Positions 2-14,447 of a stretch of 14,582 nucleotides of DNA are shown here, piece by piece (position 1 is the first letter of the stretch; every line of letters begins with the position of its first letter). The position numbers were made by a program, and so were the translations under genes. The DNA lies in contig SCQK01000010.1 of the NCBI GenBank assembly GCA_004321885.1, positions 1 to 14,582 on the forward strand, written 5' to 3'. Under the pieces are notes generated by a model. The model ran no database searches, was not told the origin of the DNA, and worked only from the letters and a program-made list of their open reading frames with translations. The DNA comes from Patescibacteria group bacterium. Its GTDB lineage: Bacteria > Patescibacteriota > Patescibacteriia > Magasanikbacterales > GWA2-37-8.

Positions 2-1564
2 GAAACGATGACAAACAGGAATGCCGGGACCCAGGACCCGGGAACATTGGTGGACGGGTCGTTTGAAATCGGCAGAAGAAATTACGCCTCCGGGTATTAT
101 TATTACACTGGTTCTATTGATGACGCGCGCGTGTATAATCGTGTTCTGTCGGCCAGCGAAATAATGCAACTATACAAAATGGGAGTGGCCAAGGTGGCCA
201 AAACCCCCACGCCGGCCGCCGGAAGCAACTCCCTCAAAACCGGCCTGGTGGGCTGGTGGACTTTTGACGGCGCCGATGTGACGACGAATACCACGACCGA
301 CAAAAGCGGGAACGGGAACAACGGGGCAAGAGGCGTTGGCACAACAGTTGCCACCGGCAAACTGGGACAGGCAATGAAGTTTAACGGCTCCACTGAAAGT
401 ATTTTGGTTACTGATTCGCCATCTTTAAGTATCACGGACAAAATTACTATTTCCGCCTGGGCCAAGTGGACAACCGGCGGTTCTGATTCCGACGCGTATC
501 TTCTAAGTAAAGGAACGGATAAGTATAATTTCCTTATTTATGCCGTGGACGCCGGCAAGATGACTTTTTTGATCAGCGCGTTGTCTCCAAGCACCACTTT
601 AAAAACAGTCGGTGCTTATAACAATAACAAATGGCATCTTTTTACAGGAACATACGACCCTAACGGCGGTACAAACAACATAAAAATATACGTGGATGGC
701 GTATTGGAAAATCAGGCAACTAAAACCGGTTCGCCATCCGACGACGCCAATGGTCTGGGGATAGGCAGATATGGCACTGGCGGGAATTATCGCTGGAATG
801 GCTCCATTGACGACGCCCGCGTGTACAATCGCGTCTTGACGGCTGCCGAAGTAATGCAACTATACAAAATGGGAGTGGCCAAGGTGGCCAAAACCCCCAC
901 TCCGTCCGCCGGCAGTAACTCGCTCAAAACCGGCCTGGTGGGTTGGTGGACAATGGATGGCAGGGATACAACGGCTACCGCCGTGAACGACAAAAGCGGT
1001 TCCGGCAATAATGGCACTCGGACAGGCGGCAAAGTCGCGAGCGGCAAATTGGGACAGGCAATAAAGTTTAATGGAAGCACAGAATACATTACCACGGTTG
1101 ATAGTCCGTTTGATTTTGGCACTGGCAATTTTACAGCCGCGGCCTGGTTCAAAGTCAGCACCCAAGCGGAAGCTAACGCGATTTTAGATAAGTATGGCGC
1201 CGGCGGCGCGGGAGACAAGGGGTGGATTTTGTGGGCTAATTCTACCGGGAACAATAAATTGCTGGGTTTTATTGATAATGGAAGCGTTGATATGACCGGA
1301 GCGACCTCGCTTGTTGTCGGGAGATGGTATCACGCCGCGCTGGTAAGAAATGGCGACATTGGTTATTTGTATTTGAATGGTGTCCAAGACGCAAGTTTAG
1401 GCGGGTTGGCCGCGAGAAATGCTGTTTCTAATGTAGCGATGCAGATTGGCTCAGAAAATGGCAGCGCGACCTATGCTTTTAACGGCTCTATTGACGACGC
1501 CCGCGTCTACAACCGCGCCCTGTCGGCCAGCGAAATAATGCAGTTGTACAAGATGGGGAGATAA
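2..1564 (+). CDS. 5'-partial surface-type protein built of tandem LamG (concanavalin A-like lectin/glucanase) jelly-roll domains
   Basis: ORF 8..1564 is open to the window edge (no stop in frame at 2..7). The product has three copies of the LamG C-terminal strand motif GSIDDARVYNR(V/A)L(S/T)A(S/A)E(I/V)MQLYKMG at about 229-aa spacing. Each copy is preceded by a beta-rich segment (..SGKLGQA(M/I)KFNGSTE.., ..WHLFTGTYD.. / ..WYHAALVRNG..). The first motif lies only about 35 aa into the ORF, so the first domain must begin upstream of the window. Stop is TAA at 1562..1564. Confidence 0.75.
   Translation, partial: ETMTNRNAGTQDPGTLVDGSFEIGRRNYASGYYYYTGSIDDARVYNRVLSASEIMQLYKMGVAKVAKTPTPAAGSNSLKTGLVGWWTFDGADVTTNTTTDKSGNGNNGARGVGTTVATGKLGQAMKFNGSTESILVTDSPSLSITDKITISAWAKWTTGGSDSDAYLLSKGTDKYNFLIYAVDAGKMTFLISALSPSTTLKTVGAYNNNKWHLFTGTYDPNGGTNNIKIYVDGVLENQATKTGSPSDDANGLGIGRYGTGGNYRWNGSIDDARVYNRVLTAAEVMQLYKMGVAKVAKTPTPSAGSNSLKTGLVGWWTMDGRDTTATAVNDKSGSGNNGTRTGGKVASGKLGQAIKFNGSTEYITTVDSPFDFGTGNFTAAAWFKVSTQAEANAILDKYGAGGAGDKGWILWANSTGNNKLLGFIDNGSVDMTGATSLVVGRWYHAALVRNGDIGYLYLNGVQDASLGGLAARNAVSNVAMQIGSENGSATYAFNGSIDDARVYNRALSASEIMQLYKMGR
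110..1564 (+). repeat. Intragenic tandem repeat inside the LamG gene. About 150-nt blocks of high nucleotide identity at 110..262 and 800..952 (period 690 nt). A third partial copy at 1484..1564 (period 684 nt)
   Basis: Direct comparison: ggttctattgatgacgcgcgcgtgtataatcgtgttctgtcggccagcgaaataatgcaactatacaaaatgggagtggccaaggtggccaaaacccccac.. versus ggctccattgacgacgcccgcgtgtacaatcgcgtcttgacggctgccgaagtaatgcaactatacaaaatgggagtggccaaggtggccaaaacccccac... These encode the domain end plus the VAKVAKTPTP(A/S)AGSNSLKTGLVGWWT linker. Confidence 0.8.
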
Positions 1565-1570
1565 GCTATG
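1491..1570 (+). repeat. 80-bp direct repeat, copy 1. Covers the last 25 codons of the LamG gene, its stop, and the RBS plus ATG
   Basis: 1491..1570 matches 2185..2264 at 77 of 80 positions (mismatches at 1512/2206, 1549/2243, 1565/2259). In this copy the terminal ATG (1568) opens only M-L-L-V-stop. Confidence 0.9.
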
Positions 1571-3904: not shown

Positions 3905-6055
3905 ATGCGTGTCTTGGCAGAAGAAAATTTTGAGAAAGAAGTCAAGGAAAATTTTTTGTTTCAATTTTTCGTTCCCAAAGCCGGCGTTTATTTTATTGAA
4001 ATCAGCGCGTCAGCCAAGAGCTGGTGGCAGAATTTATTAAAGTTTCGTTCGTTTTTTCGCGATGATGATTTGGCTTTAAAAATAGACGAGTCCGGATTTG
4101 ACAAACTTTCCGGCAAACGGGGCATATTTGATGGTGAAGCGGCGTGGAACGGCAACAAGTTGAAGAGTTTGGAGCAAACTATTGTTTTTTTACTGCCGCT
4201 TGGCGCCGGGGCGCACAAAATACAATTTTTTTCCGACCAAAGACCGGTTCTAAAAAAAATTATTGTCTACGAAAGTGGGAGAAATATTTTATATTCGCCG
4301 TCACCCGCGTCGCCGCGGGATGGCAATCGCAGGCCATGGCTGACGTTCGCATTTAAGGACCTTGTGATAAAAAATCTAAAAGTGAAAGCCAAAGCGGACG
4401 CGGACAAAGACGATTCTGATATTAAACTTGTAATTAACGGTCAAGTTGAAAAAAACGAAGAGTCAAAATCGCACCATGGCTGGTATTGGTGCGGCCGTGT
4501 TTTGAAAGGGAAAGCTAAAATTTTTGATAAAAGTTTTAATCGTTCGGAAGGAAGCGCCCGTTTTATTGAATTTTGGACTGATGGAATGCCGTTGTTAGAA
4601 GAGATTAAAATGCGAGTGACGGAAAAGGGGGTTGAAAAAACCGGTCGGGTTGTCGTGCGTAAGGACATTGTCGGTTCGGGATTGTCGGAGGTAAACCTGC
4701 GCGCGGCGGCTGATGAGAATGGCGATATAACCGGGAAGATAAAAACAGGAGAAGAGGTGTTGATAGATGAAATAGCTGTTTCGGGTAGTAATGTGGCGGG
4801 TATGCTGTCAAATAATTGGCATGGAGTTTATTATAATGGAATGAGCGGGTATGTGCACTCTTCTCTCATAGAACTTGCGGGGCAAGAGAGAAAAAGAATT
4901 ACCGATTTTATTCAAACCAAAGCCGGAGAATTGGGGATTGATAAAAATTTAGCCTTGAATTTGGCTTACTGCGAATCAAAGTGGCTACCGTTCGCGATTT
5001 CGGAAACCGGGAATAAAGGCATTTTTGAACTCGGAGGGGATACAATAATTGAGATAAATGGGAAATTAGGCGGTAATATTCGCGACCCTTATGACCCGTG
5101 GCAAAATATTGACGGGGGCCTGAAATATTTGAGGTTTCTTTTAGAGAGATACAAAGACACAGAAAATAGTTTGGAAAAATCCATTACCGCGTGGAGCCGC
5201 GGACCGGACAGAGTGCCGTATAACAAGCCATTTGTTTACGCCGAGCAATCCAGAGGAGCGCAGGCGCTTCTTGATGGCGTTTTGAAATCAAAGGCAGGAG
5301 AGAATATATTAAAAGCACTCGGGGCGCTGGTTGTTTTTTTGATTTTAGGTTTTGGGGCCATTGCCTTCGCCTCAAGCGGCGACAACGCAAGGGAGCGGCT
5401 GTGGTATTTGAAATTGGAGCGCGGAGTTGAGCTTGGACTGGAGCACGCGGCCTGGCTCGTGGACATTGGCGAGGTTGACTTGGCGGACTTTGAAGATGAT
5501 TTTGATTTGGACGGCGAGTTTGAAAAAGTCCAATTTTTTGTTTTCCCCTCAAATGTTGATGACGGGTATTTTACCCGCGTATTTCTTTCGGCGACTGAAT
5601 ATTTTGACGTGGACGGCATATTTATAGAGGGCAAAGGTCTTGATTTAAACGGCGGCGGAGAAAAAGAGCTTTTTGTCAGGACTGTGAAAGATGATATTTT
5701 TAATTTGTATATTTTTAGTTTGCGGGATAAAAAATTGCGTTTGTTTCCAGTGTATGACAACGAGATTACGCGGGAAAATGTAAAGAGCATTAAGTCAAAA
5801 TTTAGAATAGAAAACACACGCACTGGTGATGGAGATGGGAATGAGGCGGTTGCCTTTATAGCCAAACGAGCCAATTATAAGGGAGAATATTGCGATTGGT
5901 ATAACACTTTGGAATATTACGAGTGGAATGGAGTCGGTTTTGAAAAAAGTAGGACAGAAGCAGAGCCGCTTTTTCCGGAGGGTCATTGCGCCGCCCCAAG
6001 CAGTAGACCCGAATTATATGGCCCTGCGCCCACCATACAATGGTCGGTGAATTAA
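3905..6055 (+). CDS. Multidomain protein. N-terminal beta-rich region, then bacterial SH3 (SH3b) domain, then SLT/GH23 lytic transglycosylase domain, then a single TM helix, then an acidic C-terminal domain
   Basis: AGGAGA RBS at 3895. SH3b match: VNLRAAADENGDITGKIKTGEEVLIDE...WHGVYYNGMSGYVHSSLIEL. SLT match: LAYCESKWLPFAISETGNKGIFELGG (catalytic E-S then A.S..G..G motif), DPYDPWQNIDGGLKYLRFLLERY (DP..NI..G..YL motif) and ITAWSRGPDRV (AYNAG-like motif). One hydrophobic helix ILKALGALVVFLILGFGAIAFASS at about residue 470. No N-terminal signal peptide. Confidence 0.8.
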   Translation: MRVLAEENFEKEVKENFLFQFFVPKAGVYFIEISASAKSWWQNLLKFRSFFRDDDLALKIDESGFDKLSGKRGIFDGEAAWNGNKLKSLEQTIVFLLPLGAGAHKIQFFSDQRPVLKKIIVYESGRNILYSPSPASPRDGNRRPWLTFAFKDLVIKNLKVKAKADADKDDSDIKLVINGQVEKNEESKSHHGWYWCGRVLKGKAKIFDKSFNRSEGSARFIEFWTDGMPLLEEIKMRVTEKGVEKTGRVVVRKDIVGSGLSEVNLRAAADENGDITGKIKTGEEVLIDEIAVSGSNVAGMLSNNWHGVYYNGMSGYVHSSLIELAGQERKRITDFIQTKAGELGIDKNLALNLAYCESKWLPFAISETGNKGIFELGGDTIIEINGKLGGNIRDPYDPWQNIDGGLKYLRFLLERYKDTENSLEKSITAWSRGPDRVPYNKPFVYAEQSRGAQALLDGVLKSKAGENILKALGALVVFLILGFGAIAFASSGDNARERLWYLKLERGVELGLEHAAWLVDIGEVDLADFEDDFDLDGEFEKVQFFVFPSNVDDGYFTRVFLSATEYFDVDGIFIEGKGLDLNGGGEKELFVRTVKDDIFNLYIFSLRDKKLRLFPVYDNEITRENVKSIKSKFRIENTRTGDGDGNEAVAFIAKRANYKGEYCDWYNTLEYYEWNGVGFEKSRTEAEPLFPEGHCAAPSSRPELYGPAPTIQWSVN

Positions 6056-6112
6056 AAAATTTTAGGAGATATATGTTAAATATTTTTAACGTAAAAAATC
6101 ATAACGGGAACC

Positions 6113-6191
6113 GCGATACCCCCTCCTCACCTCCCCCTTATAAAGGGGGAGGAGTCGCCGCCGCCGGTAATTCCTCCCCTATAAGGGGAGG
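6113..6191. repeat. Family-1 hairpin elements, two adjacent copies. ATACCCCCTC...CCTCCCCC-TTATAAA-GGGGGAGG at 6113..6152. A shorter CCTCCCC-TATAA-GGGGAGG at 6173..6191
   Basis: Perfect 8-bp stem with 7-nt loop at 6130..6152. The same 23-mer recurs at 8589..8611, and the 5' flank ATACCCCCTC recurs at 8575. Lies in the intergenic region after the 716-aa gene; no T-tract follows. Confidence 0.7.
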
Positions 6192-6270
6192 GACAACCCC
6201 CCACGCCAAAAATTTTGGTGTGGGGGTAAAGGGTGGGGTTAAAACAAATTTCACCAAATATCAGGACCCG

Positions 6271-7101
6271 GAAAAGGGGATGAGCGGCGGCCAGCTCAAA
6301 TGGAGTTTGTGGTTTTCGGGCCGTCGGGTGATTTTTTACCGGGCCGCGCTTATTTTTGTCGCGGCCGCGGCCATAATTATCTGGCTGTTCAGCCTGTGGC
6401 GTTGGGTATTTTTTATCATAGAAATTCCCGATGCCAGGCGCGTGCGCGCCGAGCTCGCCCGCTTTGACGATTATAGCATCATCAATCAACGCATCGGGTT
6501 TCAGCCGGTGCAGATTTTCGGCGCCCAGTTTTTGGCGAGCGGGAAAGACAAATACGACGTCGCGGCCGAGATGTTTAATCCGAACACGCGGTCAGTGGTG
6601 TTTTTTGATTATTATTTTTTTTATAATAATACCTCCACTCCAAAACAATCCGCGTTTTTATTGCCGGGCCAAAGGCGGCCGCTGGTGGCTTTGGGCCTGG
6701 CCGGCGCCGCGGGCGAGCCGGTTTTGCATATAGAAAACGTGAAGTGGAAAAAAATTTCCGCTCACGATGTCAGCGACCCGAAGCAGTATCAGGATTATCG
6801 CCTAAATTTCGCGGTGACGGATTTTGTTTTTTCACCGGCTTCGGAAAGCGGGGCCGATTTTCCGGCCGTGAAATTTAATTTGACCAATAACGGTCCGTAC
6901 AGCTATAATGCCCCCAAGTTTTTGATTGGGCTGACGCAAAATGAGGAGCTGGTGAGCGTTTTTAGGGCGGATTTTGCTTCGTTTGCGTATGGCGAGACAA
7001 AAAATATGGATATTCGGCTGTTTGTTCCGAATGCCTCGGCCGCGGGCGCGATTGTTTATCCGCTCATAAACATTTATGATAAGGAGGCCTATCTGCGATG
7101 A
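6271..7101 (+). CDS. Hypothetical membrane-anchored protein (N-terminal TM, then extracytoplasmic domain). Translationally coupled to the SEDS gene
   Basis: The ORF track gives 6040..7101, but the first 77 codons are low-complexity readthrough of the palindromic repeats. ATG 6271 is preceded by GAAAAGGGG. Product has a TM segment ALIFVAAAAIIIWLFSLWRWVFFII. Stop TGA overlaps the ATG of the next gene (ATGA at 7098). Confidence 0.6.
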   Translation, partial: EKGMSGGQLKWSLWFSGRRVIFYRAALIFVAAAAIIIWLFSLWRWVFFIIEIPDARRVRAELARFDDYSIINQRIGFQPVQIFGAQFLASGKDKYDVAAEMFNPNTRSVVFFDYYFFYNNTSTPKQSAFLLPGQRRPLVALGLAGAAGEPVLHIENVKWKKISAHDVSDPKQYQDYRLNFAVTDFVFSPASESGADFPAVKFNLTNNGPYSYNAPKFLIGLTQNEELVSVFRADFASFAYGETKNMDIRLFVPNASAAGAIVYPLINIYDKEAYLR

Positions 7102-8236: not shown

Positions 8237-8575
8237 ATGTCTTTTAATAAAAAAAGCAAGGGATTTTCCGAGTGGGAGCAGAGCGCGAAGATGCTCGGCA
8301 CCTGTACGGTTTGCGGGCGGGCCTATGGCTCGGGCAAAATGAAAATTCTGAAAAATGAAAAAAAGTCGCGCCTTTTGCACGCGACTTGCGCGTTTTGCAA
8401 CAGTCATTTTATGGCCATGCTGATGAAAATGGGCGGCGGGATGAGCACGATAGGCATGGTGACGGATTTGAGCCTGAATGATTCCAGGCGCCTGCTGGAT
8501 AAAGCGCCGATTACCGTGAATGAAGCCATAGAGGGGTATAAATATATCAATGAAAAGTTTTCACAAGCGAAGTAA
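8237..8575 (+). CDS. Hypothetical small protein with a CxxC...CxxC zinc-ribbon motif
   Basis: Product contains CTVCG and CAFCN 26 residues apart. No family recognised. Confidence 0.5.
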   Translation: MSFNKKSKGFSEWEQSAKMLGTCTVCGRAYGSGKMKILKNEKKSRLLHATCAFCNSHFMAMLMKMGGGMSTIGMVTDLSLNDSRRLLDKAPITVNEAIEGYKYINEKFSQAK

Positions 8576-8624
8576 TACCCCCTCTTGTCCTCCCCCTTAT
8601 AAAGGGGGAGGTTAGGTAGGGGTA
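8575..8624. repeat. Family-1 hairpin element: ATACCCCCTCTTGTCCTCCCCCTTATAAAGGGGGAGG with an imperfect outer stem TACCCCCT/AGGGGTAT
   Basis: The 23-mer core is identical to 6130..6152. Located between the zinc-ribbon gene stop and the rplY RBS. Confidence 0.7.
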
Positions 8625-8630
8625 TATAAT

Positions 8631-9365: not shown

Positions 9366-10301
9366 TTATTTTATAGAAATTATTACCAGCCGATCTCGCC
9401 CCGCGAGGTCGGTTTTGATTTCGCAGGATGAGGCGGGCAGGTATTTTTTTATCAGGGTTTTTATGGCTTCGCTTTGGCGCGGGTCTATTTCCAGGAGTAT
9501 TGTCATTGCGAGGCCGCTTGCGGCCGAAGCAATCCCATCCGTTATGGCAAGGGATTGCTTTGCTCCACTTCGTTCCGTTCGCAATGACAGTTGGGACAAC
9601 AGTTCTTCGTACAGCGACAACCCGTTTATCGCGTCCGCGACCAGCGCGCCCCGCGGCTCTTTTTGGATAGAGGGTTCTTTGCCGTATTGCTCGGCCGTGA
9701 GATAGGGCAGATTGGCGGTGATGATGAGCGAAGAATATTGAATAGAGAATTGAGAATTATGGATAACGGGTTCCAGCAAATTTCCATGCAGAAATTTTAT
9801 TTTTACCCCGTGCTTTTTGGCGTTTTTTTTGGCGACGCGTAGGGCCGCGCGGGAAATGTCTGTGGCGATAAGTTTGATTGACCCCCTCTTAGTCTCCCCC
9901 TTAGGCGCGCTTCGCGCGCGGGAAGCAAGGGGGAGAGAACGAGCGACCGCAATCGGCATGCATCCGCTTCCCGTTCCTACGTCAATCAAAATCGTCTTCT
10001 CTATTCTCAATTCTCTATTCTCAATTCTTCGCACAACCTCCTCCACCATCAATTCGGTTTCGGGCCGGGGGATTAAGACATTTTTGTTCACCAAAAAATC
10101 CAGGCCGTAAAATTCCTTGTGTCCGGTGATGTAGGCGATGGGCCAGCCGCGCTCGCGGAGCCGGCAGTAGTATTTGAACTTCACCCGTTTCCAAAAACTC
10201 GGTTTGTATTCCGGGTGCGCCAAGATAAATTCGCGCGATTTGCCGATAGCGTGCGCTAAAAGAATTTCCGATTTAAGGTTTTCTAAACGTGAAAAAATCA
10301 T
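9366..10301 (-). CDS. prmC: Release factor glutamine methyltransferase PrmC (HemK). Carries two in-frame insertions that coincide with palindromic elements
   Basis: Motifs ..ILIDVGTGSGCMPIAVA.., ..LIITANLPYL.. (NPPY-type) and the C-terminal ..DLAGRDRLV... Extra segments LPLASRARSAPKGETKRGS and TERSGAKQSLAITDGIASAASGLAMT map exactly onto the repeats at 9881..9937 and 9502..9588. Confidence 0.85.
   Translation of the reverse strand: MIFSRLENLKSEILLAHAIGKSREFILAHPEYKPSFWKRVKFKYYCRLRERGWPIAYITGHKEFYGLDFLVNKNVLIPRPETELMVEEVVRRIENRELRIEKTILIDVGTGSGCMPIAVARSLPLASRARSAPKGETKRGSIKLIATDISRAALRVAKKNAKKHGVKIKFLHGNLLEPVIHNSQFSIQYSSLIITANLPYLTAEQYGKEPSIQKEPRGALVADAINGLSLYEELLSQLSLRTERSGAKQSLAITDGIASAASGLAMTILLEIDPRQSEAIKTLIKKYLPASSCEIKTDLAGRDRLVIISIK
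9502..9588. repeat. Family-2 palindromic element: GTCATTGCGAGG, GGCCGCTTGCGGCC, GAAGCAATCCC, loop, GGGATTGCTT, ...CGCAATGAC. Right arm degenerate. Sits in-frame inside prmC
   Basis: Nested inverted repeats read directly. Shares ends and inner arms with the copy at 10886..10978. On the minus strand it encodes ..LSLRTERSGAKQSLAITDGIASAASGLAMT... Confidence 0.75.
9881..9937. repeat. Family-1 related hairpin: ACCCCCTCTTAGTCTCCCCCTT with a 10-bp stem TCTCCCCCTT/AAGGGGGAGA around a GC-palindromic loop GCGCGCTTCGCGCGC. Sits in-frame inside prmC
   Basis: The 5' part matches the family-1 flank ACCCCCTCTT(G/A)T(C)CTCCCCCTT seen at 8577 and 6117. Encodes the PrmC insertion ARSLPLASRARSAPKGETKRGS. Confidence 0.7.
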
Positions 10302-11808
10302 AGCTGTTTAATTCTATCGGATTATTTATATCGCGCCAGCCTTTTTTCCGCAAAGCCGAGGCAATGTCAAGCTCGCCCAGCGCCGGGCTTTGCAAAAGCA
10401 AAAGTTCGTCAAAATTTTTCAGGTTCGCGCTTTCTATCCAACCGTTGATTTCTTTCTCATCGCGATTCCAGCGCCAATAATTTTTCGTTATCACGTCAAA
10501 ATCATAATTGGCGCCAAGGCCCGGGCCCCGATAGGGGACAAGCTGAATCGGGATTTTGATGTAGCGTTCCAAGAGGGGTTTGTCTATAAAATTGCTGTAC
10601 ACCAGCGCCTGTTTTTTGGACGGATTGTAGCGGGCGGAGATTTCTTGGCGCAGGGGCCGCCAGTCATTGAGCGGCAACATTGAGTTTAGTTTTTGCAGAC
10701 CGGGCAGAGAAATAACAACCGTCGCCAAGACCACCCATTGCCAGCGCCCCAGAAATCGCCAGAGCAAAAAAGCCATCAGCAGGATGACCCACGGATAAGC
10801 GGTTTCCACGAATTTGATGTCGTAAAGCCCGAGGGCGTAAGACACGATAAGGGGAAAGAGAATGAGCACGAGGAGGGGAATTACTGTCATTGCGAGGCCT
10901 GAGGCCGAAGCAATCCCTTCCGATAAAGTTTGGGATTGCTTCGTCGTCCGGTCATCCGACCGGACTCCTCGCAATGACAAAACCAAGCCGGCGGCAAATC
11001 CGGCCATGACAAGCAGGCCGAAAGGCCACCAAGCGATACCCGTAAACATTATTTGCATCGGGGTAATGAGTTGTAAAAATTTTGGCGGCACGTGCAAAAA
11101 CCACGCCAGTTGGGCCGTGTCTATATTGAATTTTGAGACAAGAGACGGGATGGCCCACACCAGCCAGAGGCCGGCTGGAGCAAGATTTATTTTAATCCAA
11201 CCCCGCAGCGCCGTTCCGCTGTCATTCCTCCGACTAAGTACTGGGGAATCCAGTATCAATATAATAAACTGGGCCGCGAAAACAAAAAGCGCGGTGAGGT
11301 GGGTGTAGAGGAGCAAGAGGGAAATGAGGGCGTAGAATGTCGCATCCGCCGCTCTTTGAGGACTTAAAAACACTCGTTCAAAATAATCAAAAGATAATAT
11401 TACCAGCAACAAAAATAGCGTGTAGCCGCGCCCGGTGGCCGAAAGCCAAATATGATAAGGAGAAATAGACAGCAGAAGGGCGGAGATAAGGGCTATATTT
11501 TCGTCAAACAACCTTTTGGTCACGCGATAGAGCGCCGCAATGCCCAGCAGTCCGAAAAGCAGGCTGGGCAAGCGCGTAAAAAATTCATTGGCCGGAAAAA
11601 TATAAAACCATAATTTTAGGAACAGCATGTGCAGGGGCGGATTGGTTTCCCATGTCCAAAATTGAATGCTTTGGCCCCATGGTTTTTGGCTGTAGGTGAA
11701 AGAAAATATTTCATCGTGCCAAAAATCGCCGTAGCGCGCCAGAACATACGCGCGCGCGGCCAGCGCGAGAAGCAAGATGATGATAAACAATTTCGCGGCT
11801 TTACGCAT
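10273..11808 (-). CDS. GT-C fold glycosyltransferase of the PMT/ArnT family (GT39/GT83-like), polytopic membrane protein
   Basis: N-terminal TM then the first-loop DE motif (..FWHDEIFSF..), ..[15 protein letters not shown].., about 11 predicted TM segments and a C-terminal soluble domain. Start overlaps the prfA stop by 8 nt; stop overlaps the prmC start by 29 nt. Contains two in-frame palindromic-element insertions. Confidence 0.75.
10886..10978. repeat. Family-2 palindromic element, intact copy. GTCATTGCGAGG, GCCTGAGGC, GAAGCAATCCC, loop, GGGATTGCTTC, TCCGGTCATCCGACCGGA, CCTCGCAATGAC. Sits in-frame inside the GT-C gene
   Basis: Perfect 12-bp terminal inverted repeat plus three internal hairpins. 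Encodes ..[32 protein letters not shown].. in the same relative frame as the prmC copy. Confidence 0.8.
11221..11251. repeat. Family-3 related degenerate hairpin GTCATTCC-TCCGACTAAGTACTG-GGGAATCC inside the GT-C gene
   Basis: Shares GTCATTCC and the CCGACTAAGT core with 12885..12915. Encodes [11 protein letters not shown] in frame. Confidence 0.5.
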
Positions 11809-12862: not shown

Positions 12863-12915
12863 TGTCATTCCCGCTTCCCCCATTGTCATTCCCCCGACTA
12901 AGTCGTGGGAATGAC
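12861..12915. repeat. Family-3 hairpin GTCATTCCC-CCGACTAAGTCG-TGGGAATGAC (12885..12915), preceded by a tandem half-copy CATTGTCATTCCC (12861..12873)
   Basis: 9-bp stem GTCATTCCC/GGGAATGAC with an inner CGAC-TAA-GTCG mini-hairpin. Located at or over the prfA 5' end and RBS. Confidence 0.7.
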
Positions 12916-12925
12916 AGGTGAAATT

Positions 12926-14353: not shown

Positions 14354-14447
14354 AGCGTTTGAAAATGTTTTTGCTTTCCTCGCCCGCGAGGGCTCGGGCA
14401 TGACGCCGTGGGCGTCATAAGCCGCAAAAACATATTCAAACGCTTTT
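14354..14447. repeat. Structured element with 21-bp terminal inverted repeats (AGCGTTTGAAAATGTTTTTGC / GCAAAAACATATTCAAACGCT, one mismatch). They flank two GC-rich hairpins (CCTCGC-CC-GCGAGG and ATGACGCC-GTG-GGCGTCAT)
   Basis: Inverted repeats read directly in the rpsB-downstream intergenic region. Could be a MITE-like element, a terminator, or a leader of the downstream gene. Confidence 0.5.

What the first reader, a model, noticed from the sequence alone, without database searches (positions are those of the whole stretch)
9502..10978. Palindromic about 90-nt elements (GTCATTGCGAGG...CCTCGCAATGAC) inserted in-frame into two essential-type genes, adding a similar peptide to both proteins
Two copies of one element sit inside minus-strand coding regions: 9502..9588 in prmC and 10886..10978 in the GT-C glycosyltransferase. 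The copies share 12-bp terminal inverted repeats and nested internal hairpins (GAAGCAATCCC...GGGATTGCTTC). Neither interrupts its ORF. Both are read in the same relative frame. They add LSLRTERSGAKQSLAITDGIASAASGLAMT to PrmC and [32 protein letters not shown] to the glycosyltransferase. The PrmC segment falls between conserved HemK motifs where homologues are continuous. This behaviour (palindromic repeats tolerated as in-frame protein insertions) is what is described for Rickettsia palindromic elements. I am not aware of it being characterised for this kind of genome.
Basis: seen in the sequence. Interest (0 to 1): 0.8.

Follow-up and report, generated by a model that had tools for sequence, protein, structure and literature searches.

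The report
Palindromic repeats read through inside genes
Two copies of a short hairpin-forming mobile repeat sit in frame inside two genes of an uncultured ultra-small (Patescibacteria) bacterium and add a floppy surface loop to each protein; this is the known "Rickettsia palindromic element" behaviour, caused by a related repeat superfamily, seen here in a group of bacteria where I found no report of it.

Summary
Copies of 87 nt (9502-9588) and 93 nt (10886-10978) share GTCATTGCGAGG termini and nested hairpins.

Homologue alignments show that both are lineage-specific additions. AlphaFold2 models place each in a low-confidence loop, with the element's ends joining the neighbouring helix and strand or helix.

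The element is not new in kind. It has the layout of a head-to-head dimer of the "CGTC-tagged" REP superfamily (Di Nocera et al. 2013, PMC3733652). That superfamily includes Rickettsia RPE-4 and RPE-6, and its dimers are already known to encode 20-30 residues inside genes of several phyla. This particular family (ATTGCGAG...GAAGCAAT, with a bipartite stem) occurs in more than ten phyla, where the copies whose annotation I checked were intergenic. It does not match the peptides listed for the four described families.

Among 120 Patescibacteria PrmC homologues, 14-15 carry such peptides. They come from three families, use all three reading frames, and sit at the same few loops.

No target-site duplication, parent transposase or Rfam match was found. 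I found no report for Patescibacteria. Verdict: a new member of a known kind, of moderate interest.

The parts
10886..10978 (-). Intact 93-nt element (head-to-head REP dimer) in frame in the glycosyltransferase gene. It encodes S278-T308 ([31 protein letters not shown]). With the flanking T and A the palindrome spans 10885-10979.
   Evidence: absent from 24 homologues and from the syntenic orthologue
10886..10897 (.). Terminal inverted repeat GTCATTGCGAGG of the GT copy. Its partner is CCTCGCAATGAC at 10967-10978.
   Evidence: I11: 13 nt, 100% complementary
10907..10942 (.). Central stem GAAGCAATCCC (10907-10917) / GGGATTGCTTC (10932-10942) with a 14-nt loop.
   Evidence: I3
10946..10965 (.). 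Long arm hairpin GTCCGGTC-ATCC-GACCGGAC. The short arm GGCC-TGA-GGCC lies at 10896-10906.
9502..9588 (-). Partly decayed 87-nt copy in frame in prmC. It encodes S239-T267 (SLRTERSGAKQSLAITDGIASAASGLAMT). The right terminus has 2 mismatches and one arm hairpin is lost.
9366..10301 (-). prmC (release-factor glutamine methyltransferase, 311 aa), the host gene. It carries at least two repeat-derived inserts.
10273..11808 (-). PMT_2 / GT-C family membrane glycosyltransferase (511 aa), the host gene. It carries two repeat-derived inserts.
9881..9943 (-). An in-frame palindrome of a different, C-rich family (CCCCCTC...TCCCCCTT / AAGGGGGAG) in prmC. It encodes about SLPLASRARSAPKGETKRG and corresponds to a 17-residue gap against T. 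maritima HemK.
   Evidence: D10; I8
11220..11250 (-). Decayed mini-palindrome with TGTCATTCC...GGAATGACA ends, read in frame in the GT gene (about [12 protein letters not shown]). Extra residues relative to most homologues.
   Evidence: (I10)
12884..12916 (-). Intact 33-nt palindrome TGTCATTCCCACGACT-T-AGTCGGGGGAATGACA at the 5' end of prfA, followed by a partial repeat (about 12866-12884). The mechanical ORF start ATG lies in its terminal AATGACA.
   Evidence: (I5)

Best explanation
The two elements are copies of a short non-autonomous palindromic repeat. Each is a head-to-head dimer of two REP-like units. A unit consists of:
- an unpaired (C/T)GTC tag;
- an ATTGC/GCAAT stem that encloses a small variable hairpin;
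- a 3-nt tail.

The repeat belongs to, or sits next to, the CGTC-tagged REP superfamily, which includes Rickettsia RPE-4 and RPE-6.

Proposed sequence of events:
1. Copies land anywhere. This genome is about 91% coding, so most land in genes.
2. Only copies that keep the reading frame, contain no stop codon and fall in a structurally permissive loop survive.
3. Surviving copies are transcribed and translated with the host gene. The terminal repeats encode residues that extend the neighbouring helix and strand or helix. The middle forms a disordered loop of about 17 residues.
4. After insertion there is no selection on the copy, so it decays. The GT copy is intact and therefore recent. The prmC copy is eroded and therefore older.

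What is shown: repeat identity, in-frame reading, absence from homologues, loop location, recurrence at the same loops in relatives, and absence of target-site duplications.

What is inferred: that the peptide is really made, and the means of spread. My best guess for the spread is a trans-acting enzyme that recognises single-stranded hairpin DNA (HUH/Y1 type, as for REPINs) rather than a cut-and-paste DDE transposase. I put that at roughly 30-40%. The overall confidence given here refers to the main account (a translated, tolerated in-frame REP-dimer insertion), not to the guess about mobility.
For: Repeat family:
- 84 full copies share one architecture.
- The arm sequences differ from copy to copy. 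Many form hairpins (36% have z < -1), though as a group they fold only modestly better than shuffled sequence (mean z -0.77).
- Two 95-nt copies in one prmC gene (L202) differ only by compensatory changes, CCCTGC..GCAGGG versus CCCCGC..GCGGGG.

Unit layout:
- The tag is unpaired, the stem is ATTGC/GCAAT, and a tail follows.
- The base before GTC is C in 55 and T in 19 of 80 copies.
- This matches the published description: tag CGTC or TGTC, stems starting with AT, CCA tail, head-to-head dimers, intragenic dimers encoding 20-30 aa (PMC3733652).

Insertion status.

Structure:
- PrmC model, mean pLDDT 84.7. Residues 246-261 score below 50, lying between helix 229-244 and strand 265-271.
- GT model, mean pLDDT 89.9. 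Residues 286-296 score below 50, lying between helices 261-284 and 302-325.

Recurrence:
- 14 of 120 PrmC homologues were flagged by peptide patterns. P0054 makes 15.
- They represent three families and all three frames, at the same loops.
- DNA was checked in L202, L203 and L205.

Other hosts:
- The C-terminal tail of a Wzy_C protein in another Patescibacteria genome.
- The inter-domain linker of PurL in a Bacteroidales genome.

No target-site duplication in 80 copies. No transposase in the window.
Against: - There is no protein or RNA evidence that the insert is translated.
- The source genome beyond this contig could not be read, so the genome-wide copy number and the fraction inside ORFs are unknown.
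- The net gain is only about 17 residues in both proteins, although the elements span 29 and 31 codons. About 12-14 native loop residues are therefore missing, which a simple insertion does not explain.
- The unit does not meet the published stem and loop dimensions. It has a 5-bp stem plus an inner hairpin, instead of 8-9 bp stems with 4-5 nt loops.
- No HUH transposase was found or systematically searched for, and the 2013 study found none associated with CGTC repeats.
- The near-identical core across many phyla has no explanation here.
Confidence: 0.8

Rival explanations
1. The element has been co-opted. Either the stable mRNA hairpin inside the coding region or the added loop peptide serves the cell, for example by tuning translation or mRNA stability or by adding an interaction surface. 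In that case it is kept by selection and not merely tolerated.
For: - Repeat-derived inserts recur at the same loops of PrmC in many lineages.
- The two L202 copies keep their arm hairpin through compensatory changes that alter the peptide (C to R, S to G, R to G).
- The GT copy folds very stably.
Against: - The same loops host unrelated families in different frames and orientations, which give unrelated peptides. That points to permissive sites and not to a selected module.
- The prmC copy has lost one hairpin and part of its terminus.
- Most homologues have no insert at all.
- The compensatory differences could have arisen in source copies before insertion.
Confidence: 0.1
2. The elements are not translated. 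They are removed from the mRNA or bypassed by the ribosome, as in T4 gene 60 or the 'byp' elements of yeast mitochondria. On this view the predicted peptide is an annotation artefact.
For: The elements are very stable hairpins with perfect terminal pairing, which would bring the two flanks together. No expression data exist for this organism.
Against: - Every intragenic copy examined keeps the frame and lacks stop codons. This holds for the two window copies, two in L202, one each in L203 and L205, and those in P0015 and P0053. Removal or bypass would not require that.
- One of the three frames is closed by TGA in the right terminus, and none of the intragenic copies examined is read in it.
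- The element's ends model as continuations of the host helix and strand.
- Caveat: collecting homologues by protein search favours intact ORFs.
Confidence: 0.04
3. The segments are ancestral variable loops, or assembly chimeras, that only look like a repeat.
For: Both sites are naturally variable loops in the two protein families.
Against: - Repeats with the same conserved termini and central stem occur at unrelated, mostly intergenic sites in many phyla.
- The two window copies are 80% identical over the central 45 nt (D11).
- An independent assembly carries both element copies and encodes an identical PrmC.
- Independent metagenomes show the same situation.
Confidence: 0.02

Closest known systems
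CGTC-tagged REP superfamily, families CGTC-1 to CGTC-4 (Di Nocera, De Gregorio and Rocco 2013, PMC3733652). It includes Rickettsia conorii RPE-6 (CGTC-1) and RPE-4 (CGTC-4) and the Neisseria dRS3 repeats.
   Same: - Unpaired terminal CGTC tag, TGTC in the Patescibacteria copies.
- Stem that starts with AT.
- 3-nt tail (CCA, CCC or CTC).
- Head-to-head dimers with the tags outermost.
- No target-site duplication and no flanking transposase.
- Dimers read in frame as inserts of about 20-37 aa, for example RC0378 SFLRKQESSKNLKNKSFIIFLDSRFRRND.
   Different: - The unit stem is 5 bp (ATTGC/GCAAT) and encloses a small variable hairpin, often with a GNA triloop. The described families have 8-9 bp stems with 4-5 nt loops.
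- The encoded peptides (VIAR.., CHCEERSDEAI..ARND, SLRG..KQS..IAS..LAMT) are not among those listed for the four families. Figure 2 of the paper could not be read, so assignment to a numbered family is open.
- The host phylum, Patescibacteria, is not in that survey.
Rickettsia palindromic elements RPE-1 and relatives (Ogata et al. 2000 and 2002, as summarised in PMC10969869)
   Same: Palindromic repeats inserted in frame into unrelated housekeeping genes at positions compatible with the protein fold. Copies proliferate and then decay.
   Different: - RPE-1 is longer, about 100-150 bp, and specific to Rickettsia.
- No NCBIfam RPE-type domain matched.
- The window's family is spread across many phyla and, in the Proteobacteria records whose annotation I checked, is intergenic.
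REPINs and RAYT transposases (Bertels and Rainey 2011, PMC3116915)
   Same: Two inverted REP units form one long hairpin of about 100 nt. The element is non-autonomous and leaves no target-site duplication.
   Different: REPINs carry a GTAG tag and have a cognate single-copy RAYT gene flanked by REPs. They are mostly vertically inherited within Gammaproteobacteria lineages. Here there is no GTAG tag and no RAYT was found.
Classical bacterial MITEs (for example Correia/NEMIS, ERIC, and cyanobacterial MITEs that fuse to ORFs; PMC10969869)
   Same: Short elements with terminal inverted repeats, occasionally forming in-frame fusions with host ORFs.
   Different: MITEs normally show target-site duplications and termini matching a parent IS. 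Neither was found here.

Membership tests
CGTC-tagged REP superfamily (PMC3733652) | Unpaired terminal tetranucleotide CGTC (variants TGTC, CCTC) | tested here: met
   The base before GTC is C in 55 and T in 19 of 80 copies. Both window copies have TGTC. The tag is unpaired in the unit fold.
CGTC-tagged REP superfamily (PMC3733652) | Stem of 8-9 bp starting with A-T pairs, and a loop of 4-5 nt | tested here: not met
   The stem does start with AT (ATTGC/GCAAT). However, it is only 5 bp and encloses a variable inner hairpin of 7 to more than 40 nt. A CGTC-1 control unit folds as 8 bp plus 4 nt.
CGTC-tagged REP superfamily (PMC3733652) | Short unpaired 3' tail, mostly CCA | tested here: met
   GCAAT is followed by CCA in most proteobacterial copies and by CCC or CTC in the Patescibacteria copies.
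CGTC-tagged REP superfamily (PMC3733652) | Predominantly head-to-head dimers with a spacer, able to fold as one large stem-loop | tested here: met
   All 84 full copies are inverted pairs with the tags outermost.
CGTC-tagged REP superfamily (PMC3733652) | No dedicated transposase gene flanked by the repeats | tested here: inconclusive
   The window has no transposase. The only transposase seen, an IS256/Mutator-type gene in L029, has its own ends and sits between two copies. Whole genomes were not surveyed.
Rickettsia palindromic elements (RPE) | In-frame insertion into unrelated protein-coding genes at fold-compatible (surface or loop) positions | tested here: met
Rickettsia palindromic elements (RPE) | Sequence membership in one of the RPE families of the genus Rickettsia | tested here: not met
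   No RPE-type model matched in NCBIfam. The peptides listed for RPE-4 and RPE-6 (VIPWLDHGI, DTVVKPRYD, SFPRKRES, DSRFRGND) differ from the window's. The link is at superfamily level only. Copies of the window's family do occur in Rickettsiales MAGs (L036, L106).
Classical MITE | Terminal inverted repeats plus a target-site duplication | tested here: not met
   Terminal inverted repeats of 12-13 bp are present. No direct flank repeats of 2-9 bp appear above expectation in 80 copies. The single 'CG' signal is the palindromic extension itself.
Classical MITE | A parent IS carrying the same termini | tested here: inconclusive
   The long-range terminus pairs I examined (L010, L015, L029, L049, L075) are composite repeats, host genes or a foreign IS. 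Only 8-kb windows were available.
REPIN/RAYT | GTAG-tagged REPs and a cognate RAYT gene flanked by them | tested here: not met
   The tag is (C/T)GTC and not GTAG. No Y1 transposase was seen in the window. A genome-wide search was not possible.

The most novel reading that the evidence does not exclude
The ATTGCGAG...GAAGCAAT element is an undescribed fifth family of the CGTC-type repeats. Its 20-odd-nucleotide core is conserved across more than ten bacterial phyla because an as yet unidentified, widely shared enzyme that acts on hairpin DNA copies it. In gene-dense Patescibacteria this and sister families are a regular source of new surface loops, and sometimes of N- or C-terminal extensions, in core proteins. 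That would make the lineage a second, independent 'Rickettsia-like' case of protein evolution by selfish palindromes.
Probability: 0.3. Interest if true: 0.55.

Novelty: new member of a known kind. Interest (0 to 1): 0.35.

Why it matters
This shows that the RPE phenomenon is not peculiar to Rickettsia. Selfish palindromes can be read through as protein loops wherever a small, gene-dense genome is invaded by REP-type repeats.

Practical consequences:
- These inserts lengthen proteins and depress family scores. The window's PrmC scores 196.1 bits against a TIGR03534 cut-off of 199.1.
- They create spurious N-terminal extensions.
- They can mislead alignments, phylogenies and structure predictions for Patescibacteria proteins.

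The recurrent hot spots also give a natural map of permissive loops in PrmC. In addition, the cross-phylum conservation of the repeat core bears on an open question: what mobilises CGTC-type repeats, for which no transposase is known?

Tried and rejected
1. Protein search with the concatenated element peptides found nothing usable. Only 8 word-sharing candidates turned up and none scored. One of the three searches was wasted this way.
2. Rfam at E <= 10 over the whole window gave no match on either element.
3. The phage collection gave no match.
4. Literature searches by sequence string returned only unrelated primer hits.
5. PrmC-anchored metagenome loci (80 loci, 617 kb) turned out to be distant, at 29-45% identity. 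They held no GTCAT-type element under a strict criterion. They therefore could not give lineage statistics, but they do show that the repeat is not ubiquitous.
6. Search for a parent transposon: the long-range terminus pairs I examined are either host genes, a composite tandem-repeat element (L010), or an IS256-like element inserted between two copies (L029).
7. Target-site duplications: none.
8. An RPE protein-domain match in NCBIfam: none.
9. Counting copies in the source genome was impossible.
Full report
**1. The observation**

The window is a complete 14,582-bp contig of an NCBI metagenome-assembled genome named "Patescibacteria group bacterium". Its nearest PrmC relatives, about 52% identical, are Candidatus Magasanikbacteria.

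Two related elements lie at the stated coordinates.
- The copy at 10886-10978 (93 nt) has perfect 12-bp termini, GTCATTGCGAGG / CCTCGCAATGAC. These extend to 13 bp with a flanking T and A. It has a central stem GAAGCAATCCC / GGGATTGCTTC and two arm hairpins. It folds far better than shuffled sequence: as RNA, -55.6 kcal/mol (z = -8.8); as DNA, z = -9.7.
- The copy at 9502-9588 (87 nt) keeps the left terminus, the central stem and one arm. It has two mismatches in the right terminus and has lost the other arm.

The 12-mer with up to two mismatches occurs six times in the window, against 1.0 expected.

Both copies lie in minus-strand ORFs, in the same orientation and frame. The host genes are prmC (PF17827, TIGR03534) and a PMT_2 / GT-C glycosyltransferase. 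They sit in a conserved block, prfA - GT - prmC - L25.

**2. They are insertions**

PrmC:
- The alignment to solved HemK structures ends at residue 236, three residues before the element.
- In an alignment of 120 relatives, only 16 (the window's PrmC included) have eight or more extra residues in that region. The sequences of those extras are unrelated to one another.

Glycosyltransferase:
- All 24 aligned homologues lack the 17 extra columns.
- The syntenic orthologue from a groundwater metagenome (L202) lacks 22 residues there.

**3. Where the inserts sit in the proteins**

- The AlphaFold2 model of PrmC is confident (mean pLDDT 84.7). Residues 246-261 score below 50 and have no secondary structure. 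Element residues 239-244 continue helix 229-244, and residues 265-267 begin strand 265-271.
- The glycosyltransferase model (mean pLDDT 89.9, pTM 0.90) puts element residues 278-284 at the end of helix 261-284 and residues 302-308 at the start of helix 302-325. The loop between them is disordered, with pLDDT below 50 at 286-296.
- In homologues this loop is short and rich in Lys and Arg. By the positive-inside rule it is probably cytoplasmic. That is an inference.
- In PrmC, all the insertion hot spots are helix-to-strand loops that precede the strands of the Rossmann-like sheet. They therefore lie on the face opposite the AdoMet and substrate site. This is an inference from the established topology of class I methyltransferases, applied to the secondary-structure map.
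- One oddity: both proteins gain only about 17 residues net, although the elements span 29 and 31 codons. About a dozen native loop residues are missing. I cannot tell whether they were lost at insertion or afterwards.

**4. What the element is**

The hits include Bradyrhizobium and many other Alphaproteobacteria, Gammaproteobacteria, Bacteroidota, Chloroflexota, Planctomycetota, Zixibacteria, Omnitrophota, Rickettsiales (including a Tisiphia symbiont) and several Patescibacteria.

Eighty-four full copies share one plan:
- an outer stem GTCATTGCGAG;
- an arm;
- a central stem GAAGCAATCC...GGATTGCTTC around a variable loop;
- a second arm.

The arms differ in sequence from copy to copy. Many are self-complementary, often with GAA or GCA triloops, though as a group they fold only modestly better than shuffled sequence.

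Location in other genomes:
- In the plasmid collection, none of the 13 listed matches overlaps an annotated feature. One Novosphingobium replicon has at least 40 places.
- The N. aromaticivorans copy lies 13 nt after a stop codon.

There is no Rfam match and no phage match.

The flanks show no target-site duplication. The base outside GTC is C in 55 and T in 19 of 80 copies, and it is T in both window copies.

**5. Comparison with what is known**

Di Nocera et al. (2013, PMC3733652) defined a superfamily of CGTC-tagged REPs with these features:
- an unpaired CGTC tag, often TGTC;
- stems that start with AT;
- a 3-nt tail close to CCA;
- mostly head-to-head dimers;
- no associated transposase;
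- presence in five phyla, mainly Alphaproteobacteria.

They equated R. conorii RPE-6 and RPE-4 with CGTC-1 and CGTC-4. They also listed intragenic copies in several species, where dimers encode 20-30 residues.

Folding one half of the window element gives that layout: an unpaired TGTC, the stem ATTGC/GCAAT, and a 3-nt tail. The difference is that the stem is only 5 bp and encloses a small variable hairpin, instead of 8-9 bp with a 4-5 nt loop.

The peptides of the window's family differ by frame: VIAR.., CHCEERSDEAI..ARND, and SLRG..KQS..IAS..LAMT. None of them appears in the paper's list. I therefore file the element as a variant family of this superfamily. It is not one of the numbered families, and it is not a sequence member of the RPE families. 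No RPE-type model matched in NCBIfam.

**6. How general it is in this lineage**

Among 120 PrmC homologues, 14 were flagged by peptide patterns, and P0054 makes 15.
- The window's family appears in all three frames:
  - P0027, twice;
  - P0015;
  - P0053, twice;
  - P0054, P0075 and P0089.
- CGTC-1-type peptides (SFPRK...RLRGND): P0006, P0050, P0079, P0091, P0112.
- CGTC-2-type peptides (CHAEFISAS): P0014, P0081, P0106.

These fall at the same few loops. DNA confirms the cases checked:
- L202 has two 95-nt copies in one prmC gene. They differ only by compensatory changes in an arm hairpin.
- L203 has a 67-nt copy, or 69 nt counting the flanking T and A.
- L205 has a 57-nt CGTC-2-type unit.

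Elsewhere:
- The element supplies the C-terminal 34 residues and the stop codon of a Wzy_C protein in another Patescibacteria genome.
- One unit lies in frame in the linker of PurL in a Bacteroidales genome.

The window itself holds further read-through palindromes:
- a C-rich family in prmC (9881-9943) and at the start of ORF 6073-7101 (6116-6196);
- a decayed TGTCATTCC...GGAATGACA mini-palindrome in the GT gene (11220-11250), with an intact copy at the 5' end of prfA (12884-12916).

About 91% of the window is coding, by my sum of the ORFs.

**7. Mechanism**

Best-supported account: a non-autonomous REP-dimer lands in genes because there is little else to land in. It survives only when it is in frame, free of stop codons and in a permissive loop. 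One frame is closed by TGA in the right terminus. The element is then translated as a disordered loop whose ends merge with the host's secondary structure, and it decays neutrally. The intact GT copy and the eroded prmC copy fit that last step.

How the element spreads is not shown. I favour, with modest confidence, a trans-acting enzyme that works on single-stranded DNA (HUH type) over a DDE transposase. The reasons are:
- there is no target-site duplication;
- the hairpin-rich unit carries a conserved unpaired tag;
- hairpins are retained through compensatory changes, and the arm sequences vary from copy to copy.

No such gene was found. The only transposase seen near copies is an IS256/Mutator-type element in L029. 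It has its own ends and sits between two copies, so it is a guest and not the parent.

**8. Verdict**

The phenomenon is of a known kind, since in-frame REP and RPE-type palindromes have been described since 2000 and 2013. I found no report for Patescibacteria, and this particular family appears not to be described. Interest is moderate.

Noticed in passing
window 9881-9943 (prmC), 6116-6196 (start of ORF 6073-7101), 8575-8625 (intergenic): A second repeat family of C-rich hairpins (CCCCCTC..TCCCCCTTATAAAGGGGGAGG). It is read in frame in prmC (SLPLASRARSAPKGETKRG) and in the N-terminal region of an unannotated 342-353-aa ORF (..TPSSPPPYKGGG..SSPIRGG..). One copy is intergenic, upstream of L25.
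   Followed up: partly
window 12884-12916 and about 12866-12884 (prfA 5' end); window 11220-11250 (GT gene): A 33-nt palindrome, TGTCATTCCCACGACT-T-AGTCGGGGGAATGACA, plus a partial repeat just upstream of the likely true prfA start (MNMNSKY...). It gives the mechanical ORF a repeat-derived N-terminal extension (MTMGEAGMT). A decayed copy is read in frame in the glycosyltransferase.
   Followed up: partly
window 9720-9757 and 10003-10040; L203 10287-10326 and 10756-10795: Inside prmC, two AT-rich runs that look like heptamer repeats (GAGAATT-like) lie 245 nt apart in inverted orientation (38 nt, 84% complementary). They encode RIENRELRIE and IHNSQFSIQYSS at two loop hot spots. A relative has an analogous inverted pair of a different repeat (CCAATAT-like). 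Whether this is a long-range mRNA stem or two independent simple-repeat inserts is unknown.
   Followed up: partly
L202 2332-2426 and 2731-2825: Two 95-nt copies of the element in one prmC gene differ only in an arm hairpin, by compensatory changes (CCCTGC..GCAGGG versus CCCCGC..GCGGGG) that alter three amino acids. The hairpin is conserved and the peptide is not.
   Followed up: yes
L029 556-1870 (Patescibacteria MAG): An IS256/Mutator-family transposase gene (665-1591, PF00872) with its own terminal repeats sits between two different copies of the element, at the CGCAATG / CATTGCG ends. This recalls the known habit of IS elements of targeting REP sequences.
   Followed up: partly
L075 about 5289-5345 (Bacteroidales MAG): One unit of the element (CGTCATTGCGAGGGCGAAAGCCCGAAGCAATCCAG) is read in frame in the inter-domain linker of a 1296-aa PurL (FGAM synthase). 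Another repeat-like stretch follows it.
   Followed up: partly
L025 3691-3793 (Patescibacteria MAG): The element supplies the last 34 residues (LSLRGSLATKQSPVSRNKSEIASLPSVARNDRQF) and the stop codon of a 524-aa Wzy_C (O-antigen-ligase-like) membrane protein.
   Followed up: partly
window 1491-1570 and 2185-2264; 1587-2179: Two 80-nt direct repeats, 96% identical, flank a HEPN-domain ORF and a nucleotidyltransferase ORF (a toxin-antitoxin-like pair). Each repeat is the 3' end of a LamG-type gene plus the following start codon. The upstream LamG gene also has internal repeats with a 690-bp period (91-324 versus 781-1014, 79% identical).
   Followed up: no
window 9366-10301: With its inserts, the PrmC scores 196.1 bits against TIGR03534, just under the curated cut-off of 199.1. 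Repeat insertions can therefore push genuine orthologues below annotation thresholds.
   Followed up: no
window 14354-14444: A 21-nt inverted repeat, 95% complementary, with a 49-nt spacer, lies just downstream of rpsB. It is unrelated in sequence to the other repeat families.
   Followed up: no
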